From a virus (taxonomy: Duplodnaviria > Heunggongvirae > Uroviricota > Caudoviricetes), in the IMG/VR virus record IMGVR_UViG_2563366800_000009, positions 1 through 43,512 of that record: DNA of 43,512 nt; one strand, given 5' to 3'. Position 1 is the first letter of the stretch. Each line of letters opens with the position of its first letter. Below are positions 2,743 through 14,316 of this stretch, in pieces. The position numbers were made by a program, and so were the translations under genes. The notes under the pieces are model-generated. The model was not told the DNA's origin. It was given only the letters and a program-made list of their open reading frames with translations, and searched no databases.

Positions 2743-4695
2743 CTAACGAAGCCATTGGCTTGGTTTTTGTTTCAGTATATGTATCGCCCCTTGACCGGAA
2801 GCTGCCTGTTGTGCAGTTGCTAGCGTCACTATGTAGGTATTCCCTACTGTTCTTGGTTGAGTAAGGTTAAACTGCAGCGGTGAAGTATCACAGGATATGT
2901 ATTCTATTCCTGAATCAGAAGTCACCTGAAATTCAGTATATAATACACTACCGGAAGAGATAGAAATGTGAATTGCTATCTCACCTCCAGTGTATACAAA
3001 AGGTATACTTGGCATATTTGAAAAATCCTTAAAGTTAAGCATTGACGATGAACTAATAACCTCTTTGCCTACGTCATTAGTAAGTTGAACCGGTTTAGTG
3101 TAATCATAAGCCAGTAGAACGTAATAGTTTACAAAATTTACAAAACTTGAAGACGCCTTTGAAGAGCTATGCCATGTTTTTTTATTGTCCACACGGTATA
3201 TGGATTGGATGTTTAGAAACTCACTTGCCGTTGCTCTTTGCAGTATACCAGTACCTATGCCAAAATGGATATTACCAACGTCAAACACGTGGTCCTCGAC
3301 ATTTCCTGTAGTTGATAATATCGCGATATCAGGCTCTGCACTATCTTCAAGCGCTTCACTGCATTTTTCAAAGTACATAGAACCAACAGACCAACTAACA
3401 GCGTTAACAGTAGCTAAACCAGCGCCTGCTGTGGTTTCAGCTATTAATGTTCCTATTCTTGATGCCAATCCTTGCCCGAGAGTGACACCGGCACCTATGA
3501 GCTGTGGGGTTAAAGATGATGAATACGGATCATACCCATAGGACAAAGATTTTGATGTGTTATACGCAGCGACGACACCAAATTCAACACCATTAACGTT
3601 TACGTCTCCGGTTTCACCGGAGAAACCATGTGCCAAAGAGACACCTCTTGCACAATCAATTCCCATATATTGATTTACTTTATGATACCAACTCCCAAGA
3701 AGTACAATTCCAACTTCTGTGGCATTATAAGCATATATAATGTCTGTGACAGATTCTGCAACTACACCAAAACCATAAAAACCGTAAGGCGCAACATTGT
3801 TAGCATCAATATTTAATGTACCAATGTGCCTAATTCCACGAACTTGTTGTTCAGGCAATGAAAGATCCGGGGATGTTCCTACTGGTTTTTTGCTGGCGCG
3901 AACTACAGCCTTTCCACCCCATGAATAGCCACTCATCGCTTTAATAGTTGCGCCGTTTGTTTCCATCACTAAATACGATGGGATAACAACTTCATCGCTA
4001 ACAAAATATGTACAACCAGGCGTTAACTCAATAAACCCTGTTTTAATTGCCATGTTAATTGCATTTAAACAATCACTTTCAGAATAAGGTTTGGCGCCGA
4101 AGTTCTCTGGGGTGTTTAAGTTAAACCCATTAAGTAGTCCAACGCATATCCAATTATCATCTGGATGGCTTCCAGCATCAACATCATAACCGCCTTCTAC
4201 TATATCTTTCCTGGCATAAAAATACATGTTTCCATCAGGATCGTTATCATAAAGAACAGCATAGCGCTCATCATCAATATGTCCACCTGATGAAAAACTA
4301 ATATCAGACTTAAAATAGAAGTTAAGTCTGAAATGATTTTTTGCCCATACAGAAAATTGATCAGGATCATACTTCAGCACATTCGGAAAATAGAACTGCT
4401 GCGCCCCATACGCATCATAAACAGCCATAGAATGGCCCTGTACAGTAACGAATTTGGCAATCTGTCCGTTATATACCGGATATCCAGCAGCGTTAATGAT
4501 GATTGGCTGCGAAACAGGAACGTGAGAGCCGTCTTCGTTCTCCACATAAACCTGAATCTGGTTTTCAGGATTTACCGGGTCAGTGTCAATTTTACCGATA
4601 TAAATTTTGCCATTGGCAACCGCTTTAAAAGAACGCGCCATAGTGAAGAGTTGCGAAGGCATTGATACGATCACATTGGCTGTAATGTCTGTCAT
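2743..4695 (-). CDS. Tailspike protein; P22-type N-terminal head-binding domain with divergent receptor-binding/enzymatic domain
   Basis: N-terminus [34 protein letters not shown]...[13 protein letters not shown] matches the conserved P22/Sf6/HK620 tailspike head-binding domain; the rest is distinct. Confidence 0.85.
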
Positions 4696-4795: not shown

Positions 4796-5674
4796 TCAGT
4801 AGTTATGTACTGAAGGAGGTAATTCTTTATTCTTAAGTCTCATCCATGCGGAAAGATTCGCTGGTCCGTCTGGCTCATTGATATCAACATCTCGTGTGTG
4901 ATTGATTAAAACGTCTCTCGCCATTCCGATAACATACGAGAATTCATGACCGTAGTCGTAGCATCTGCCGGAATAGTTCGATTGAACTTGTTTTAATGCC
5001 GGATACAGTTCGCGGAATAATGCCTGTGAACGGTTAGCATAATCCCATAGCCATACAAGGCTGTTTGCTTCTTTTGCAGAAAGCTCGTTTGCTTTCTTCT
5101 CTTGTTTGCCGATAAACTCGCCTTCAAGCACTACCCTGTGGATGTACTCTACGGCCAGCGGGATTTGTTCAATTGAAAGTTCATCAATGCTGTCAATACC
5201 AAAACGCTGATGAACCATATTGTATGCATCGTCATAGCGAAGTCCTTTCTTTCCTACCAGCATGTTTACTGCATCGCGTAGCGGCGTTCTTTCCTCAACA
5301 GTGGTTTTCTTGCCTTTCACATACTCGCCATGTTTGCGAATTGAAGGTAGAACTTCTGCTGTTACCCACTTGCGGAATTTGTGCGGGACCGAACCTTTAT
5401 TGACAGCATCGCGGCAGCGCAGAACCAATGTATACATACCTGATTCGCTAACAATGCTTAGATTCTGCTCACCACCAAGGGTGTAACTTAAAGTTACTCC
5501 CTTTTCATCGTCATCAAGTGCAGTAAGCGCCTTGCGTGAGTTAGTCAGGGTTAAAGCATCACAAACATCTTTTGCTACAAACCACGGCTCACCGCATTTG
5601 TTGATGACGCGGATTTCACTGTCGCCGAATTTGAAGATGGTGAAATCGTTTTGTGCCTTTGCTATACTTTTCAT
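4796..5674 (-). CDS. ant: Antirepressor Ant (BRO-N plus antirepressor C-terminal domain)
   Basis: Position downstream of arc as in P22 immI; ATG at 5674 has an AGGAAA RBS; ORF-track start at 5740 is a TTG. Confidence 0.7.
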
Positions 5675-5736
5675 GTCAATATTTCCTAATCCGATTTGTT
5701 GATACCGAAGCCCTGACTGTTCCCGCAGTTGGGGCT

Positions 5737-5910
5737 TCAACTTTTTGCTAGATTACCTTTAGAACTATCCCGCCTTAAACTATCCACTAACCGCATTACC
5801 ATCTCGGTATTTATTGAGCGACCATTTTCTTTCGCTGACTTCTCGATTGCTAACTTAACCTCTAATGGGATGCGCAAAGGGTACTTTGGTGCGTCTGACT
5901 TGACTATCAT
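5737..5910 (-). CDS. arc: Arc-like ribbon-helix-helix repressor
   Basis: [35 protein letters not shown] resembles P22 Arc; GGAGG RBS before the ATG at 5910. Confidence 0.7.
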
Positions 5911-5928
5911 ATTACCTCCAATCAATTT

Positions 5929-5998: not shown

Positions 5999-6235
5999 AT
6001 GTCACGCGAAGAGCCGCAAATAAATATCAGGATTTCCAAAGAGTTAAAGGCAAAGGTTAAAGCCAGGGCGCAACATAACAAGCGTTCCATGAATGCTGAA
6101 ATAATACAGATTATCGAAGATGCTGTTTGTGGTAGATCGCTTAATAGCAATGAATTTGCTCAGAAAGAGGCTGACAAATTCAGGGATGCGCTGATTGAAA
6201 CACTGAAAACCATGTATGGTAAGGATGCAAAATGA
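5999..6235 (+). CDS. mnt: Mnt-like ribbon-helix-helix repressor
   Basis: N-terminus PQINIRISKELKAKVKARAQHNKRSMNAEIIQIIEDA resembles P22 Mnt; divergent from arc-ant. Confidence 0.7.
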   Translation: MSREEPQINIRISKELKAKVKARAQHNKRSMNAEIIQIIEDAVCGRSLNSNEFAQKEADKFRDALIETLKTMYGKDAK

Positions 6236-6441
6236 ATAAAAAACAGTTTATTAAGTCAAAAACATCAAGCAAGGAAGAGCTAGAGAAAGAGCTAAACTCC
6301 CTGAAATATGCTCTGTGTCTGGTTTACTCAAGACTGCCAATGGAAGATAAAAACGCTATTTACAATGAAATGATTAGCAGCCTTGATTTTAACGATAGAG
6401 ACCTAGCATCCCACCTCAACAGCTTCCGCGTCCCTGAGTAA
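6232..6441 (+). CDS. Hypothetical 69-aa protein, translationally coupled to mnt
   Basis: ATGA start/stop overlap with mnt; AT-rich. Confidence 0.5.
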   Translation: MNKKQFIKSKTSSKEELEKELNSLKYALCLVYSRLPMEDKNAIYNEMISSLDFNDRDLASHLNSFRVPE

Positions 6442-6601
6442 TTCTGTTGCGGATTTGCTTCTTGCGGTGGTTTAGGCTGGAGAGCTTGGCTTCTGCTTCC
6501 GATATTTGCGCATCCAGATCTTTAAGTTCAAGATCTGAAAGTCGCTGGTCAAGCAGGGTTTGATTCAACTCGATGTTGTTCAGGCGTTCTTCTATGGTCA
6601 T
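6416..6601 (-). CDS. Hypothetical 61-aa coiled-coil ORF convergent with and overlapping the 69-aa ORF
   Basis: Heptad-like sequence MTIEERLNNIELNQTLLDQRLSDLELKDLDAQ; no clear RBS. Confidence 0.3.
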   Translation of the reverse strand: MTIEERLNNIELNQTLLDQRLSDLELKDLDAQISEAEAKLSSLNHRKKQIRNRITQGRGSC

Positions 6602-6626
6602 ATTGTTACCTTAGTGGGAGGTTGGC

Positions 6627-6983
6627 GTGAATGGTCAAACAATCATCATAATATTACTGAGCTTAATAGTTGCTAAGTTATATCCCCAAATCGGTTATAT
6701 TTCCCTAGTTGTCTGTACCTTGGTGGTCTTGGTATACGGGATATATAAAGTTTTTTCTTGGCTATTGCGTTTTAATGCTGCAAGAAAAACTATTTGGATC
6801 ATATTATTAGCAGCTATTGCAGCAACACCAGTGGGAATAGGGTATATCATAGATATTTTTTACCCTTCAAAAACAAAGGCATGGGTCATCGTCATTTGCT
6901 TTTACATCGCAGGTGTTTTTTTATTTGCTTTTCATTGGTGCTTTGTAAAGATTAATGAATACATATCAAGGGAAAAAAACTAA
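6627..6983 (+). CDS. Small integral membrane protein (about 4 TM helices) at the P22 sieA position; candidate superinfection-exclusion protein
   Basis: GTG start with GGGAGG RBS; strongly hydrophobic; visibly AT-rich; between mnt and the end of the late operon. Confidence 0.6.
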   Translation: MNGQTIIIILLSLIVAKLYPQIGYISLVVCTLVVLVYGIYKVFSWLLRFNAARKTIWIILLAAIAATPVGIGYIIDIFYPSKTKAWVIVICFYIAGVFLFAFHWCFVKINEYISREKN

Positions 6984-7006: not shown

Positions 7007-8755
7007 TCACTGCTGTGTTGCCTCAGTGGCAAGCAGCGGTCTGATGGCATTTGCAGCGTTACTTAATGCTCTTTCATAGGCTGGCGTTCCTGCCTTGGTG
7101 TTTGCCAGACGTAAGAGAGCATTCCTAGCCATAGGGCTTTCATAAACCCTCGACATAAGGCCAATCCCTGTTTCCCCAGCCAATAGCGCGCCTCCGGTTT
7201 TTAGGTTACCAATAACCCTTACCAAAGGCGCGAGTGTCATGCCAGTCTTCGTCACAACATTAGCCTCAGATGCTCTTTTGGTAGCATCGAGAATAGATAA
7301 CATCCCCTCTATCTCTTTTCCGTTCTTCCCACCAAATACAGTTTTAAACACCTGACCATTTGCTTGTTTTTGCAGCTTGCCAAGCTCGGTCATCATTTTC
7401 TGAGGGCTGTCACCTACCTTGTCAGCTATTTTGCTGATATATGCCGCCCTTAGCATGTCTTTACCTTTTTGATCGAGTTTCCCGTACAATCGAGCTATAT
7501 CTGACCCATATTGTCCATACACAATGGTATTTACAGCCTCGGGAGTTAAATCTCCTTTGTTTAGAACGTTTTTAAGGCGCGTTTGAGTTACATGTGTTGC
7601 CATTTTTGCATAATCAGCTTTTCCCGCTCTCCATGCTGAAGCATCTTTTGGGCTAAGTCCTTTCGCTATAGATTTACTAAGGCTATTGGTTAGCGAGTTA
7701 TAGACCCTGTCGACCATTGTTTGCGACATTGATGGCAGAACTGTACGATCGCCTTTTACGTCAATGCGGAACTGAGTTCTCAGCTTATCAAGTAACTCAA
7801 AGGCATCATCTCCATTTGTTATCTCCTGAATGGCATTCTTATAATCATTAAGCGCAGAAATGGTCTGGGTGTCAGAAACACCTTTAAGTTTCCCAAGTTC
7901 GTTTACTGCTCCGTCGATAGCTCTTATGGCGCCACTTGTATCAACTGGCTTTCCAACCATTCTTCCTGACAGGCTGTTTAGTTTTGACTTGGCTAACGAT
8001 TTTTCCCTTGCAACGCCTGACTTTAGACTATCAACGACTACAGATGGATCGTAGTCGCCGTATTTTTCGGTGAAGCGATTAACAAGCTTGGTTCTGGCAT
8101 CCTGCTGTGCGGCTCTCATTGGTCCAGTACCAGCTATGACTCCTTCTGAGTAACCCTGCAGTTGATTGCCAAGTTTTGTTTTTGGAGGAACTACATCCGA
8201 TGTCATAACTGGTACATCTGCCGCAGCGGCACGCTTGAGCAATTGCTGATCTGCTGGTGATATTTCGCCACGAACAGCAGTAATTCCACGCCCTATTCCC
8301 TTTGCTGCTGCGGAAAGAACCCCCTGAGCGGCAAGGTTAACTCCGGCGTTTCTTGCTGCATTTTGTGCGAAATCGCCTTTCTGATTTGCGGCCTCTGCCA
8401 GTGATCCAATAGCCATACTTCCTGCCGTTCCAACTCCTGGAACTAAATACCCGCCAATTGTTTCTCCAGCTTGAGCGTAGGAGTCTGTCGGTCTGTCTAC
8501 TGGACGATAGACATCATCCAATACTTTTGGCCCGCCTAACCCCTGACTAATAGCGTTAATCAGGCTTGCACCGCCCTGCAGCACATCGAACGGAATGTTT
8601 ACCAGGCCGCGACCGGCCTGCTCTGCGCTCTGCAACAGAGACTGCTCTTGCGGTTGAGCTGGCTGCTCATCAAACTGATCAAAGAAGTTACCCTCTGCCG
8701 CTGGAGTTTCCGGTTGAGGGATGGCTTCATCAAATTGGTCGAAGAAATTCGCCAT
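7007..8755 (-). CDS. Ejection (E) protein, P22 gp16-like
   Basis: 582 aa; size and position at the end of the late operon match P22 gene 16. Confidence 0.7.
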   Translation of the reverse strand: MANFFDQFDEAIPQPETPAAEGNFFDQFDEQPAQPQEQSLLQSAEQAGRGLVNIPFDVLQGGASLINAISQGLGGPKVLDDVYRPVDRPTDSYAQAGETIGGYLVPGVGTAGSMAIGSLAEAANQKGDFAQNAARNAGVNLAAQGVLSAAAKGIGRGITAVRGEISPADQQLLKRAAAADVPVMTSDVVPPKTKLGNQLQGYSEGVIAGTGPMRAAQQDARTKLVNRFTEKYGDYDPSVVVDSLKSGVAREKSLAKSKLNSLSGRMVGKPVDTSGAIRAIDGAVNELGKLKGVSDTQTISALNDYKNAIQEITNGDDAFELLDKLRTQFRIDVKGDRTVLPSMSQTMVDRVYNSLTNSLSKSIAKGLSPKDASAWRAGKADYAKMATHVTQTRLKNVLNKGDLTPEAVNTIVYGQYGSDIARLYGKLDQKGKDMLRAAYISKIADKVGDSPQKMMTELGKLQKQANGQVFKTVFGGKNGKEIEGMLSILDATKRASEANVVTKTGMTLAPLVRVIGNLKTGGALLAGETGIGLMSRVYESPMARNALLRLANTKAGTPAYERALSNAANAIRPLLATEATQQ

Positions 8756-13614: not shown

Positions 13615-14114
13615 TATTCGCTCCCGTTATCGCAAGGTTCCTTTCGCTGGAAGTAATTCCAACCGTTCCACTTCGCCAACTGGTTACCACTACCAACAGG
13701 CATACGGTTTGGATAACCGGACTTACATTTAGCGGCTTTTGCTCTGTCCATTGCAGACAGTTTGACGAGTCGCTCTTTCCCGTATCTGGCAGTGGTTATA
13801 AGTTTTGCAGGTGCTTCCAGCGCATAATCCGGTGCAATGCGGCAGGCAAGGTTGAAAATGATGGCATTGATAGCGTTATTTGATAAACCGTGCTCATCGC
13901 CCGGATCCGGAGCAACATCTGCATCAGCAAAAATGTAGCCAACGTTGATACCAGGTGACGCATCACCGCCAAGCCATTCAGCCATCATCATTTCAAGGTC
14001 GTTGACGCCGTCTTCCATAGACTGCGGTTCGACATCTGTTAACGTGGCATTTGATGCCACACCGAGCTTACGTAATGCCGCAAGGACTAAATCACCCTTC
14101 GTTGTCAGGTTCAT
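13614..14114 (-). CDS. Tail accessory protein, P22 gp4-like
   Basis: [33 protein letters not shown] resembles the P22 gp4 N-terminus; start chosen at internal Met. Confidence 0.75.
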
Positions 14115-14316
14115 CTGCTGCCGCCTTAGGTTTTCGACCAGGCTTTTTACGCTGTTTTTCTTCTGGCTCTGCAACATCCTTCAAAAGGTCATCAGGATGT
14201 GAAAACCAGCCAGCATCCAGATATTCCTGAAGCTCTTCGGCTTTCACGATTTCAAAGTCGTATCCAACGCCTTTCCATTTCTTCATGTCTCCATGACGAA
14301 AGATCATGTGTGTCAT
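14092..14316 (-). CDS. Hypothetical small protein between coat and gp4 genes
   Basis: ATG at 14316 with GGAG RBS; basic C-terminus. Confidence 0.4.

What the first reader, a model, noticed from the sequence alone, without database searches (positions are those of the whole stretch)
6416..6601. Convergent, overlapping 61-aa coiled-coil ORF inside the sieA-locus cassette
A minus-strand ORF with clean heptad-like coiled-coil sequence overlaps the 3' end of the 69-aa plus-strand ORF by about 26 bp. Its start lies only 25 bp from the membrane gene start. It lacks a Shine-Dalgarno, so this may be a genuine small protein, an antisense regulator of the cassette, or a spurious frame.
Basis: seen in the sequence. 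Interest (0 to 1): 0.4.

Follow-up and report, generated by a model that had tools for sequence, protein, structure and literature searches.

The report
Real small phage gene, function unknown
The 61-codon minus-strand ORF is a genuine, conserved small gene of P22-like prophages that encodes a single long helix; databases already list it as a hypothetical protein, so it is ordinary except that nobody knows what it does.

Summary
It overlaps the 69-aa plus-strand ORF by 26 bp, and its ATG lies 25 bp from the GTG of a 118-aa membrane ORF.

It is a real coding gene.
- 57 distinct 186-nt versions carry no stop codon. pN/pS is 0.16 in its frame against about 1-1.9 in the frames that do not share its wobble positions.
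- 25 different DNA sequences encode the identical protein.
- Mosaic joints fall at its start and stop codons.

It does have a Shine-Dalgarno: TAAGGT, 6 nt before the ATG. All but one of 85 related loci have one too.

The gene is already catalogued as PHROG 7586, phage Emek orf61, Kapi1_061 and RefSeq WP_000151196.1, with no assigned function. It occurs only in P22-like prophages of Escherichia, Salmonella and Serratia. It always sits on the late-operon strand, between the ejection-protein genes and mnt-arc-ant. Variable cargo genes on the opposite strand flank it.

AlphaFold2 predicts one helix (residues 3-59): an acidic N-terminal part and a basic tail. A search of 1.84 billion representative proteins found no distant relatives.

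My best reading is an accessory protein made in the lytic phase from read-through late transcription. Expression timing and function are inferred, not shown.

orf69 is also a real gene and never occurs without orf61. orf61 often occurs without orf69.

The parts
6416..6601 (-). orf61: 61-aa coding gene (PHROG 7586 family). Predicted single long helix with an acidic N-terminal 43 aa and a basic C-terminal 18 aa.
   Evidence: ORF. PHROG 7586 match, E = 3.3e-44, 61/61 positions. pN/pS 0.16, no stops in 57 distinct versions. 25 distinct DNA sequences encode the identical protein. AlphaFold2 helix 3-59, pLDDT 94. Charge -6.5 / +5.8 for the two parts.
6608..6613 (-). Shine-Dalgarno of orf61 (TAAGGT on the minus strand), 6 nt before the ATG.
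   Evidence: Sequence. An SD-like motif lies 5-8 nt upstream in all but one of 85 loci.
6602..6626 (.). 25-bp linker between the divergent start codons. It carries back-to-back ribosome-binding sites: GGGAGG at 6616-6621 (+) for the membrane ORF, and TAAGGT (-) for orf61.
   Evidence: Sequence. Near-identical linkers sit next to at least five unrelated divergent cargo ORFs (118, 74, 99, 129 and 164 aa) in related loci.
6416..6441 (.). 26-bp convergent overlap of the 3' ends of orf61 and orf69. It stays part of orf61 even where orf69 has been replaced.
   Evidence: Across the last 8 codons, synonymous change is reduced and pN/pS is raised (0.65).
6232..6441 (+). orf69: 69-aa coding gene (PHROG 16466). 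Its start overlaps the stop of the mnt-like gene (ATGA).
   Evidence: PHROG match, E = 4.6e-51. pN/pS 0.16. 37 of 37 IMG/VR loci with orf69 also carry orf61. AlphaFold2 three-helix model, pLDDT 77. No fold match.
5999..6235 (+). mnt-like ribbon-helix-helix repressor gene, on the strand of the P22 lysogeny gene mnt.
   Evidence: Pfam Arc PF03869, E = 5.7e-13. Same position as P22 mnt.
6627..6983 (+). 118-aa membrane ORF with four hydrophobic segments. Variable cargo in the position of P22 sieA, but not a SieA homologue.
   Evidence: No family hit. BLASTP against P22 SieA, E = 2.3. The slot holds different genes in related loci.
5737..5925 (-). arc-like ribbon-helix-helix gene. The likely true start is the ATG at 5910, as annotated in Kapi1.
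   Evidence: Pfam Arc, E = 2.6e-12. Kapi1_064 annotation.
5676..5742 (+). sar antisense RNA of the immI region. It marks the window as having a P22-type immI module.
   Evidence: Rfam RF00262, 71.6 bits against a gathering score of 43, E = 1.7e-14.
4796..5740 (-). Antirepressor (ant) ORF. The likely true start is the ATG near 5674.
   Evidence: Pfam P22_AR_C and Bro-N. PHROG 245, anti-repressor Ant.
7007..8755 (-). Late-operon gene in the gp16 (DNA transfer / ejection protein) position, upstream of orf61 on the same strand.
   Evidence: Its 3' end matches phage genes annotated as DNA transfer protein. The neighbours are gp20 and gp7 by Pfam.
6648..6676 (-). Weak promoter-like site (TTAGCA-17-TATTAT) 46 nt upstream of the orf61 ATG, inside the membrane ORF. 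A candidate only, and specific to this cargo context.
   Evidence: the count of such sites is no higher than in shuffled sequence. Of 23 upstream contexts scanned, only the two variants of this 118-aa-ORF context carry the site; one other context has a site that abuts the ATG.

Best explanation
orf61 is a real small gene of P22-like (Lederbergvirus) prophages. It lies in the variable accessory region between the ejection-protein genes (7, 20, 16) and the mnt-arc-ant-sar immunity module. It is on the same strand as the late operon.

Shown:
- It is under purifying selection as a protein, strongest over residues 1-30.
- It has its own ribosome-binding site in every genomic context.
- It moves as a discrete mosaic unit whose joints fall at its start and stop codons.
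- It encodes one long amphipathic helix with an acidic N-terminal part and a basic tail.

Inferred:
- It has no conserved promoter of its own. In about a quarter of loci an intrinsic terminator sits 13 nt before its start. So it is most likely translated from the anti-terminated late transcript that runs from gene 16 through immI to the tailspike gene. That would make it a lytic-phase accessory protein.
- The product probably acts by forming a coiled coil, with itself or with a partner, through the conserved N-terminal half.
- Its neighbours on both sides (orf69 with mnt; the membrane cargo) are on the opposite, prophage-expressed strand. Their transcripts and its own are therefore mutually antisense, which would tend to restrict orf61 to lytic growth.

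Its biochemical function is unknown.
For: Coding:
- 57 distinct 186-nt versions, no stops. pN/pS is 0.16 in frame against 1.0-1.9 in four other frames. Variable sites by codon position: 30/22/53.
- 25 distinct DNA sequences encode the identical protein, differing at 20 synonymous sites.
- Homologues at 67-80% identity keep start, stop and length.
- pN/pS is 0.08 over codons 1-30.
- In L058 the ATG is lost and an in-frame upstream ATG is used instead.

Translation signal: an SD lies 5-8 nt upstream in all but one of 85 loci.

Discrete module: matches in E. coli genomes begin at window 6416 and end at 6602-6604, 6623 or 6631. At least 8 upstream and 4 downstream contexts exist.

Late strand:
- Terminase, coat, gp7, gp20 and the tailspike are all on the minus strand.
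- Every related locus has the same orientation.
- In two loci orf61 follows the preceding plus-strand late-operon ORF (the gene 16 position) directly.

No own promoter:
- Of 23 upstream contexts, the window's context (two variants) has a promoter-like site of at least 9/12 upstream of the ATG; one other context has a site that abuts the ATG.
- 21 of 85 loci have a hairpin plus T-run ending 13-14 nt before the ATG. The Emek record annotates this as a terminator.

Indirect expression data: in a stranded RNA-seq study of the Kapi1 lysogen, mnt was undetected while Kapi1_061 was not among the undetected genes. Diffuse late-strand transcription was seen across the last third of the genome (PMC12922286).

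Structure: single helix 3-59, pLDDT 94.
Against: - No transcript, ribosome-footprint or proteomic data for this gene were available to me. The Kapi1 expression table is not held.
- Weak sigma-70 promoters are hard to predict, so prophage expression cannot be excluded. The window's own context does have a 9/12 promoter-like site 46 nt upstream.
- The gene is absent from P22, Sf6, HK620 and most other P22-like phages (one search found it in only 4 phage records). It is therefore not needed for virion formation, and a lytic-phase role has no known target.
- The single-helix model says nothing about oligomeric state or partner.
- The pN/pS values come from summed pairwise counts on related sequences and are therefore rough.
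Confidence: 0.6

Rival explanations
1. orf61 is a prophage-expressed accessory (moron) gene. It works with the adjacent membrane or secreted cargo protein, for example as a cytoplasmic partner or regulator of a superinfection-exclusion function.
For: It lies in the region where P22-like phages keep prophage-expressed genes such as sieA and mnt (PMC10883804). It is very often 25-31 bp from a divergent membrane or secreted-protein gene. The window has a 9/12 promoter-like site 46 nt upstream. Kapi1_061 was not among the genes undetected in a lysogen culture.
Against: The neighbouring cargo genes are unrelated to one another (118, 74, 99, 129, 153, 164 and 60 aa). In 21 of 85 loci the upstream neighbour is instead a same-strand gene followed by a terminator. 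In two loci no cargo gene is present at all. A cargo-specific partner is therefore unlikely. No conserved promoter was found. The strand is that of the late operon.
Confidence: 0.2
2. orf61 and orf69 form a two-gene switch. orf69 is made with mnt in the lysogen and orf61 is made late. The two antagonise each other through their 26-nt complementary 3' ends (RNA duplex, or convergent transcription), through protein-protein binding, or through both.
For: The 26-bp overlap is kept in all 49 loci that have orf69, including homologues at 75-84% identity. orf69 never occurs without orf61 (37 of 37). Both are real genes encoding helical proteins. The same region already uses antisense control through sar.
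Against: orf61 occurs without orf69 in about 35 of 85 loci, where unrelated convergent genes take orf69's place. orf61 therefore does not depend on orf69. The overlap is retained simply because it is the C-terminal coding part of orf61. No interaction or RNA data exist. No fold or family clue was found for orf69.
Confidence: 0.12
3. The conserved element is really DNA or RNA: a promoter, 5' leader and SD platform that drives whichever cargo gene is inserted divergently, or an antisense RNA. On this reading the ORF is incidental.
For: The 25-bp double-SD linker is shared by unrelated cargo genes. In P22, the putative sieA promoter was carried on a segment of only 85 bp upstream of the start codon, and it lies inside the first 30 nt of the divergent late-strand ORF. 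A weak antisense promoter-like site, TGGAGA-17-GATATT (8/12), is present in 56 of 60 variants. The plus-strand RNA folds somewhat better than shuffled sequence (z = -2.4).
Against: Substitutions follow the codon pattern of the orf61 frame. Synonymous sites in the first 30 codons are not unusually conserved (pS 0.26 against 0.23). The candidate -35 box nearest the cargo gene falls on the most variable residues (N8, N9). The inverted repeat decays without compensating changes. No Rfam family matches. An embedded promoter could coexist with coding but cannot replace it.
Confidence: 0.04
4. The ORF is a chance open frame with no function.
For: A 61-codon ORF is common by chance in a 43.5-kb window. 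Pfam, NCBIfam and PADLOC give no significant family hit.
Against: No stops in 57 distinct versions, whereas the other five frames accumulate 83-318 stops. pN/pS is 0.16. Start, stop and SD are conserved across Escherichia, Salmonella and Serratia.
Confidence: 0.01

Closest known systems
PHROG 7586: Salmonella phage vB_SemP_Emek orf61 (AFM54335.1), Escherichia phage Kapi1_061 (QOC59577.1), RefSeq WP_000151196.1
   Same: Same protein, 98-100% identical. Same position and orientation between the ejection-protein genes and mnt. The same convergent 26-bp overlap with an orf69 homologue.
   Different: Nothing substantive. Kapi1 and some NCBI (PGAP) calls extend the N-terminus to 89-92 aa into the neighbouring divergent gene. 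That extension exists only in that one upstream context and is not conserved. No member has an assigned function.
HK620 hkcC (PHROG 1365). P22 has the same 121-aa ORF at 13861-14226, which is unannotated in NC_002371.
   Same: Positional analogue: a small late-strand ORF set divergently about 30 bp from the sieA start, inside the block of prophage-strand genes between gene 16 and mnt. Function also unknown. It can sit in tandem with orf61 (L003, L063).
   Different: No sequence similarity. It is 121 aa with an HExxH motif rather than a 61-aa helix.
XhlA (Pfam PF10779), the name some pipelines give to the N-extended version
   Same: Weak similarity to the N-terminal coiled-coil part of the profile (residues 3-53 against profile positions 2-47).
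   Different: The score is 14.1 bits against a gathering score of 34.7, E = 0.056. From my own knowledge, XhlA has a C-terminal membrane segment. orf61 ends instead in a highly basic tail of charge +5.8. The name should not be used.
P22 sar RNA / ant antisense control in immI
   Same: The same genomic region already uses overlapping opposite-strand transcription for regulation, and sar is present in this window. The convergent orf61/orf69 layout could have similar consequences.
   Different: sar is a short non-coding RNA with a defined Rfam structure. orf61 is a translated gene, and no RNA-level function has been shown for it.
P22 SieA (PF26849), for the neighbouring membrane ORF
   Same: Same slot (after gene 16, divergent from a small late-strand ORF) and a multi-pass membrane protein. 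In locus L005 a true SieA homologue sits next to an orf61 homologue.
   Different: The window's 118-aa ORF has no detectable similarity to SieA.

Membership tests
PHROG 7586 (Emek orf61-like small phage proteins) | Full-length sequence match to the family profile | tested here: met
   E = 3.3e-44, 149.6 bits, residues 1-61 on profile positions 1-61 of 61. 100% identical by tblastn to Emek and Kapi1.
PHROG 7586 (Emek orf61-like small phage proteins) | Same genomic position: late strand, between ejection-protein genes and mnt/arc/ant in a P22-like phage | tested here: met
XhlA (PF10779) | Score at or above Pfam's gathering threshold | tested here: not met
   14.1 bits against 34.7, E = 0.056. 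No NCBIfam support.
XhlA (PF10779) | C-terminal transmembrane segment after the coiled coil (feature recalled from my own knowledge of the family) | tested here: not met
   The C-terminal 18 residues are NHRKKQIRNRITQGRGSC, charge +5.8, GRAVY -1.88. There is no hydrophobic stretch.
Non-coding antisense RNA regulator (sar-like) | Match to a known RNA family, or conserved structure with compensatory changes and no codon-pattern conservation | tested here: not met
   No Rfam hit within 6416-6626. The inverted repeat is lost without compensation. Substitutions are concentrated at third codon positions.
Toxin-antitoxin pair (orf61 + orf69) | Obligate co-occurrence of both genes, normally co-directional in one operon | tested here: not met
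   The genes are convergent. orf61 occurs without orf69 in about 35 of 85 loci. No hit to a defence or toxin model beyond coiled-coil noise.
P22-type immI region (context of the finding) | Divergent Arc-family repressor genes, ant, and sar RNA between gene 16 and the tailspike gene | tested here: met
   Two Arc-family proteins and Ant. sar at 71.6 bits. gp20, gp7 and the tailspike head-binding domain.
SieA (PF26849), for the neighbouring 118-aa ORF | Sequence similarity to P22 SieA or a Pfam SIEA hit | tested here: not met
   No Pfam hit. BLASTP E = 2.3.
Late-operon gene of a P22-like phage | Transcribed from P-late under gp23 antitermination | not testable with these tools
   Only orientation, the absence of a conserved own promoter, and the upstream terminators support this. 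It needs RNA data from induced and uninduced lysogens.

The most novel reading that the evidence does not exclude
orf61 is one half of a lysis/lysogeny-partitioned pair. The late-strand helix protein (orf61) and the prophage-strand three-helix protein (orf69, co-translated with Mnt) would bind or silence each other, coupled through their conserved 26-nt 3' overlap. In addition, the orf61 coding sequence plus the 25-bp double-SD linker would serve as a fixed expression platform into which unrelated exclusion-type membrane genes are swapped exactly at their start codons.
Probability: 0.1. Interest if true: 0.5.

Novelty: already known. Interest (0 to 1): 0.2.

Why it matters
Practical value:
- The analysis settles that both small overlapping ORFs are real genes.
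- It corrects a misleading database name: the 'XhlA family' label on an N-extended call.
- It shows that orf61 is a fixed anchor in one of the most variable accessory regions of P22-like prophages.

About 2.4% of complete E. coli genomes carry the gene (130 of 5426). A protein this conserved, restricted to one phage group and with no relatives elsewhere, is a reasonable target for a knockout or interaction screen. Nothing found here contradicts what is known about how lambdoid phage genomes are organised.

Tried and rejected
- Family searches of orf61 against Pfam, NCBIfam and PADLOC gave only sub-threshold coiled-coil matches: DUF3847, MscS_porin, XhlA, SMC-like, JetC, PbeC.
- A profile search against PDB sequences gave only leucine-zipper noise, best hit HY5 at E = 0.012.
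- An HMMER profile search of 1.84 billion representative proteins found no relatives beyond the close family.
- A scan of GTDB representative genomes found none.
- Foldseek with the orf61 model against viral structures, and with the orf69 model against PDB, gave no matches. A single helix is uninformative in any case.
- Rfam found nothing at the locus.
- I tested the perfect 8-bp inverted repeat inside orf61 (CAGATCTT-N7-AAGATCTG) as a possible operator or hairpin. It decays in diverged homologues with no compensating changes, so I attribute it to the repeated D-L codons.
- I looked for a conserved antisense promoter for the membrane cargo inside orf61. Only a weak 8/12 site is kept, and it may reflect coding constraint alone. 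Synonymous sites in the 5' half are not unusually conserved.
- I looked for a conserved promoter upstream of orf61 and found none across 23 contexts.
- I tried to obtain Kapi1_061/062 expression values from the supplement of PMC12922286, which is not held.
- The Kapi1 genome paper does not discuss this region.
- I checked whether the membrane ORF is a SieA. It is not.

Full report
**Observation.** The window carries a P22-like (Lederbergvirus) prophage with its late operon on the minus strand. Large terminase, coat protein, gp7, gp20 and a tailspike with the P22 head-binding domain are all minus-strand ORFs. Between the gp16-position gene (7007-8755, -) and the tailspike (2743-4695, -) lies an immI-type region:
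- ant (4796-5740, -)
- arc-like gene (5737-5925, -)
- sar RNA (5676-5742, +; Rfam 71.6 bits)
- mnt-like ribbon-helix-helix gene (5999-6235, +)
- a 69-aa ORF whose ATG overlaps the mnt stop (6232-6441, +)
- the reported 61-aa ORF (6416-6601, -)
- a 118-aa ORF with four hydrophobic segments (6627-6983, +)

The claim that a Shine-Dalgarno is missing is wrong. The minus strand reads TAAGGT 6 nt before the ATG.

**Is it a gene?** A 61-codon ORF is not remarkable in itself. The comparative evidence is decisive.
- I collected 85 loci with a homologue from phage records, IMG/VR, metagenomes and assemblies.
- They give 58 distinct nucleotide versions and 29 distinct proteins.
- Among the 57 versions of 186 nt, the orf61 frame has no stop codon. 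The other five frames accumulate 83-318 stops.
- Summed pairwise pN/pS is 0.16 in frame, against 1.0-1.9 in four other frames. The exception (0.33) is the antisense frame that shares wobble positions, and it carries stops.
- Variable sites by codon position are 30/22/53.
- 25 different DNA sequences encode exactly the window's protein, differing at 20 synonymous sites.
- Homologues at 67-80% identity, including one from Serratia, keep the same start, stop and length.
- In one locus the ATG is mutated and an in-frame ATG three codons upstream takes over.
- All but one of 85 loci have an SD-like motif 5-8 nt upstream, although the upstream sequence falls into at least eight unrelated contexts; the exception is that same locus.
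- In complete E. coli genomes, matches start at window 6416 (the stop codon) and end at 6602-6604, 6623 or 6631. The gene is therefore a discrete mosaic unit.

The same tests show that orf69 is also a real gene (pN/pS 0.16).

**Already catalogued.**
- orf61 matches PHROG 7586 over its full length (E = 3.3e-44).
- It is annotated as orf61 in Salmonella phage Emek, and as Kapi1_061 in Escherichia phage Kapi1, where it is N-terminally over-extended to 92 aa.
- NCBI's PGAP pipeline calls it a 61-aa hypothetical protein, WP_000151196.1.
- 130 of 5426 complete E. coli genomes carry it.
- Some pipelines name the N-extended version 'hemolysin XhlA family protein'. That name is not justified. The Pfam XhlA score is 14.1 bits against a threshold of 34.7, and the protein ends in a strongly basic tail rather than a membrane segment.

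**The protein.**
- AlphaFold2, run with the family alignment, predicts one continuous helix, residues 3-59, at pLDDT 94.
- Residues 1-43 are acidic (charge -6.5). Residues 44-61 are very basic (+5.8).
- Constraint is strongest in the N-terminal 30 residues (pN/pS 0.08) and includes many surface polar positions (E4, E5, R6, E11, Q14, D18-S22, E25, K27). This suggests a specific binding surface rather than a generic zipper.
- The last eight codons, which overlap orf69, show reduced synonymous change and relaxed protein constraint (pN/pS 0.65).
- A profile search of 1.84 billion representative proteins found no relatives outside the close family.
- Pfam, NCBIfam, PADLOC and PDB give only coiled-coil noise.

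**Context across loci.**
- orf61 is always on the late-operon strand, between the ejection-protein genes and mnt/arc/ant.
- Upstream contexts:
  - 22 loci have a divergent membrane or secreted-protein ORF 25 bp away, with a shared back-to-back SD linker. The cargo there includes unrelated ORFs of 118, 74, 99 and 129 aa and a true SieA.
  - 15 loci have a Kapi1-type 60-aa signal-peptide ORF.
  - 21 loci have a same-strand gene followed by an intrinsic terminator that ends 13-14 nt before the ATG.
  - The rest fall into other contexts.
  - In two loci no cargo gene is called between orf61 and the preceding plus-strand late-operon ORF (the gene 16 position).
- Downstream, the neighbour is always convergent:
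  - orf69 in 49 of 85 loci, always with the same 26-bp overlap
  - a 105-aa secreted ORF in 14
  - a ClpP-like ORF in 14
  - a 129-aa ORF in 5
- orf69 never occurs without orf61 (37 of 37), but the reverse is not true.
- In P22 itself, the equivalent slot and orientation are occupied by an unrelated 121-aa ORF. It is HK620 hkcC (PHROG 1365) and is unannotated in NC_002371.

**How it most likely works.** These steps are inferred.
- orf61 has no conserved promoter. Of 23 upstream contexts, only the window's own (two variants) has a promoter-like site of at least 9/12 upstream of the ATG, and one other has a site that abuts the ATG. That count is no higher than in shuffled sequence.
- In a quarter of loci a terminator sits immediately before the SD.
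- The simplest reading is that orf61 is translated from the gp23-antiterminated late transcript. In P22-like phages that transcript runs from gene 16 through immI to the tailspike gene (established P22 biology, from my own knowledge).
- A stranded RNA-seq study of the Kapi1 lysogen fits loosely. mnt was not detected, Kapi1_061 was not among the undetected genes, and diffuse late-strand transcription covered the last third of the genome (PMC12922286). The per-gene values were not available.
- The flanking genes are on the prophage-expressed strand. No terminator is predicted between orf69 and the membrane ORF. Transcripts from Pmnt may therefore run antisense across orf61 in the lysogen, and late transcripts run antisense across mnt, orf69 and the cargo during lytic growth. 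This could sharpen mutually exclusive expression, but it is untested.
- The product probably acts by coiled-coil formation with itself or with a partner. Its target is unknown.

**Alternatives.**
- A prophage-expressed partner of the membrane cargo is possible. It is disfavoured because the cargo is unrelated from locus to locus and is sometimes absent.
- An orf61/orf69 switch is possible, but orf61 is frequently found without orf69.
- A purely DNA/RNA element does not fit the codon-pattern conservation, the unsuppressed synonymous variation in the 5' half, the decay of the internal inverted repeat without compensation, or the lack of any Rfam match.
- A weak antisense promoter-like site (TGGAGA-17-GATATT, 8/12) is kept in 56 of 60 variants. 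It lies on conserved codons and may be a by-product of coding.
- By analogy with P22, whose putative PsieA promoter lies within the 85 bp upstream of sieA that sufficed for expression (PMC10883804), an embedded cargo promoter may coexist with the coding function.

**Verdict.** This is a real small gene, already annotated, with unknown function. It is of low to moderate interest: ordinary mosaic phage architecture, with an uncharacterised but clearly selected helical protein restricted to one phage lineage.

Noticed in passing
L008 (P22 NC_002371) 13861-14226 +: The P22 RefSeq record has no annotation for a 121-aa late-strand ORF with an HExxH motif. The ORF lies divergently 30 bp from sieA. 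It is HK620 hkcC (PHROG 1365) and is present in 82 phage records. The annotated putative sieA promoter lies inside its first 30 nt.
   Followed up: partly
L006 4001-4177 and 5983-6168 (Salmonella assembly GCA_032301735.1): One prophage carries two orf61 paralogues, of 58 and 61 aa. Each is preceded by different cargo. This suggests that orf61-like sequences mark repeated cargo slots.
   Followed up: no
P0040 (E. coli, 58 aa): An in-frame fusion of orf61 residues 1-28 to the C-terminal about 30 residues of Ant. It is evidently a deletion that removes orf69, mnt, arc and most of ant.
   Followed up: no
window 5676-5742 +: A clear sar antisense RNA (Rfam RF00262, 71.6 bits) overlaps the arc-ant junction, as in P22. 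The ORF finder's TTG start for ant at 5740 is therefore probably too far upstream. An ATG near 5674 is more likely.
   Followed up: partly
window 6602-6626 and the equivalent linker in L003, L005, L018, L054, L056: A nearly identical 25-bp linker with back-to-back ribosome-binding sites sits between orf61 and at least five unrelated divergent cargo genes. The cargo is exchanged exactly at its start codon.
   Followed up: partly
L050 and L063, about 80 nt downstream of orf61 (minus strand in those loci): In 14 of 85 loci a 178-aa ClpP-like ORF (Pfam CLP_protease, E = 4e-7 on a 90-aa fragment) replaces orf69 as the convergent neighbour, upstream of mnt.
   Followed up: partly
L002 (Emek) and L006, upstream of orf61: A SocA/Panacea-domain gene and a partner ORF, a probable toxin-antitoxin cargo, lie on the late strand upstream of orf61. 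A strong intrinsic terminator 13 nt before the orf61 ATG closes them off.
   Followed up: no
window 6515-6537: A perfect 8-bp inverted repeat containing two BglII/Dam sites (CAGATCTT-N7-AAGATCTG) lies inside orf61. It is not conserved in diverged homologues and is probably a by-product of repeated Asp-Leu codons.
   Followed up: yes
L001 (Kapi1) 787-1287: Kapi1 has an HNH endonuclease gene inserted between ant and the tailspike gene. The window has none.
   Followed up: no
L124 3346-4466 (E. coli CAVP773): In this E. coli prophage an IS3-family element (ISSen4) occupies the cargo slot immediately upstream of orf61.
   Followed up: no
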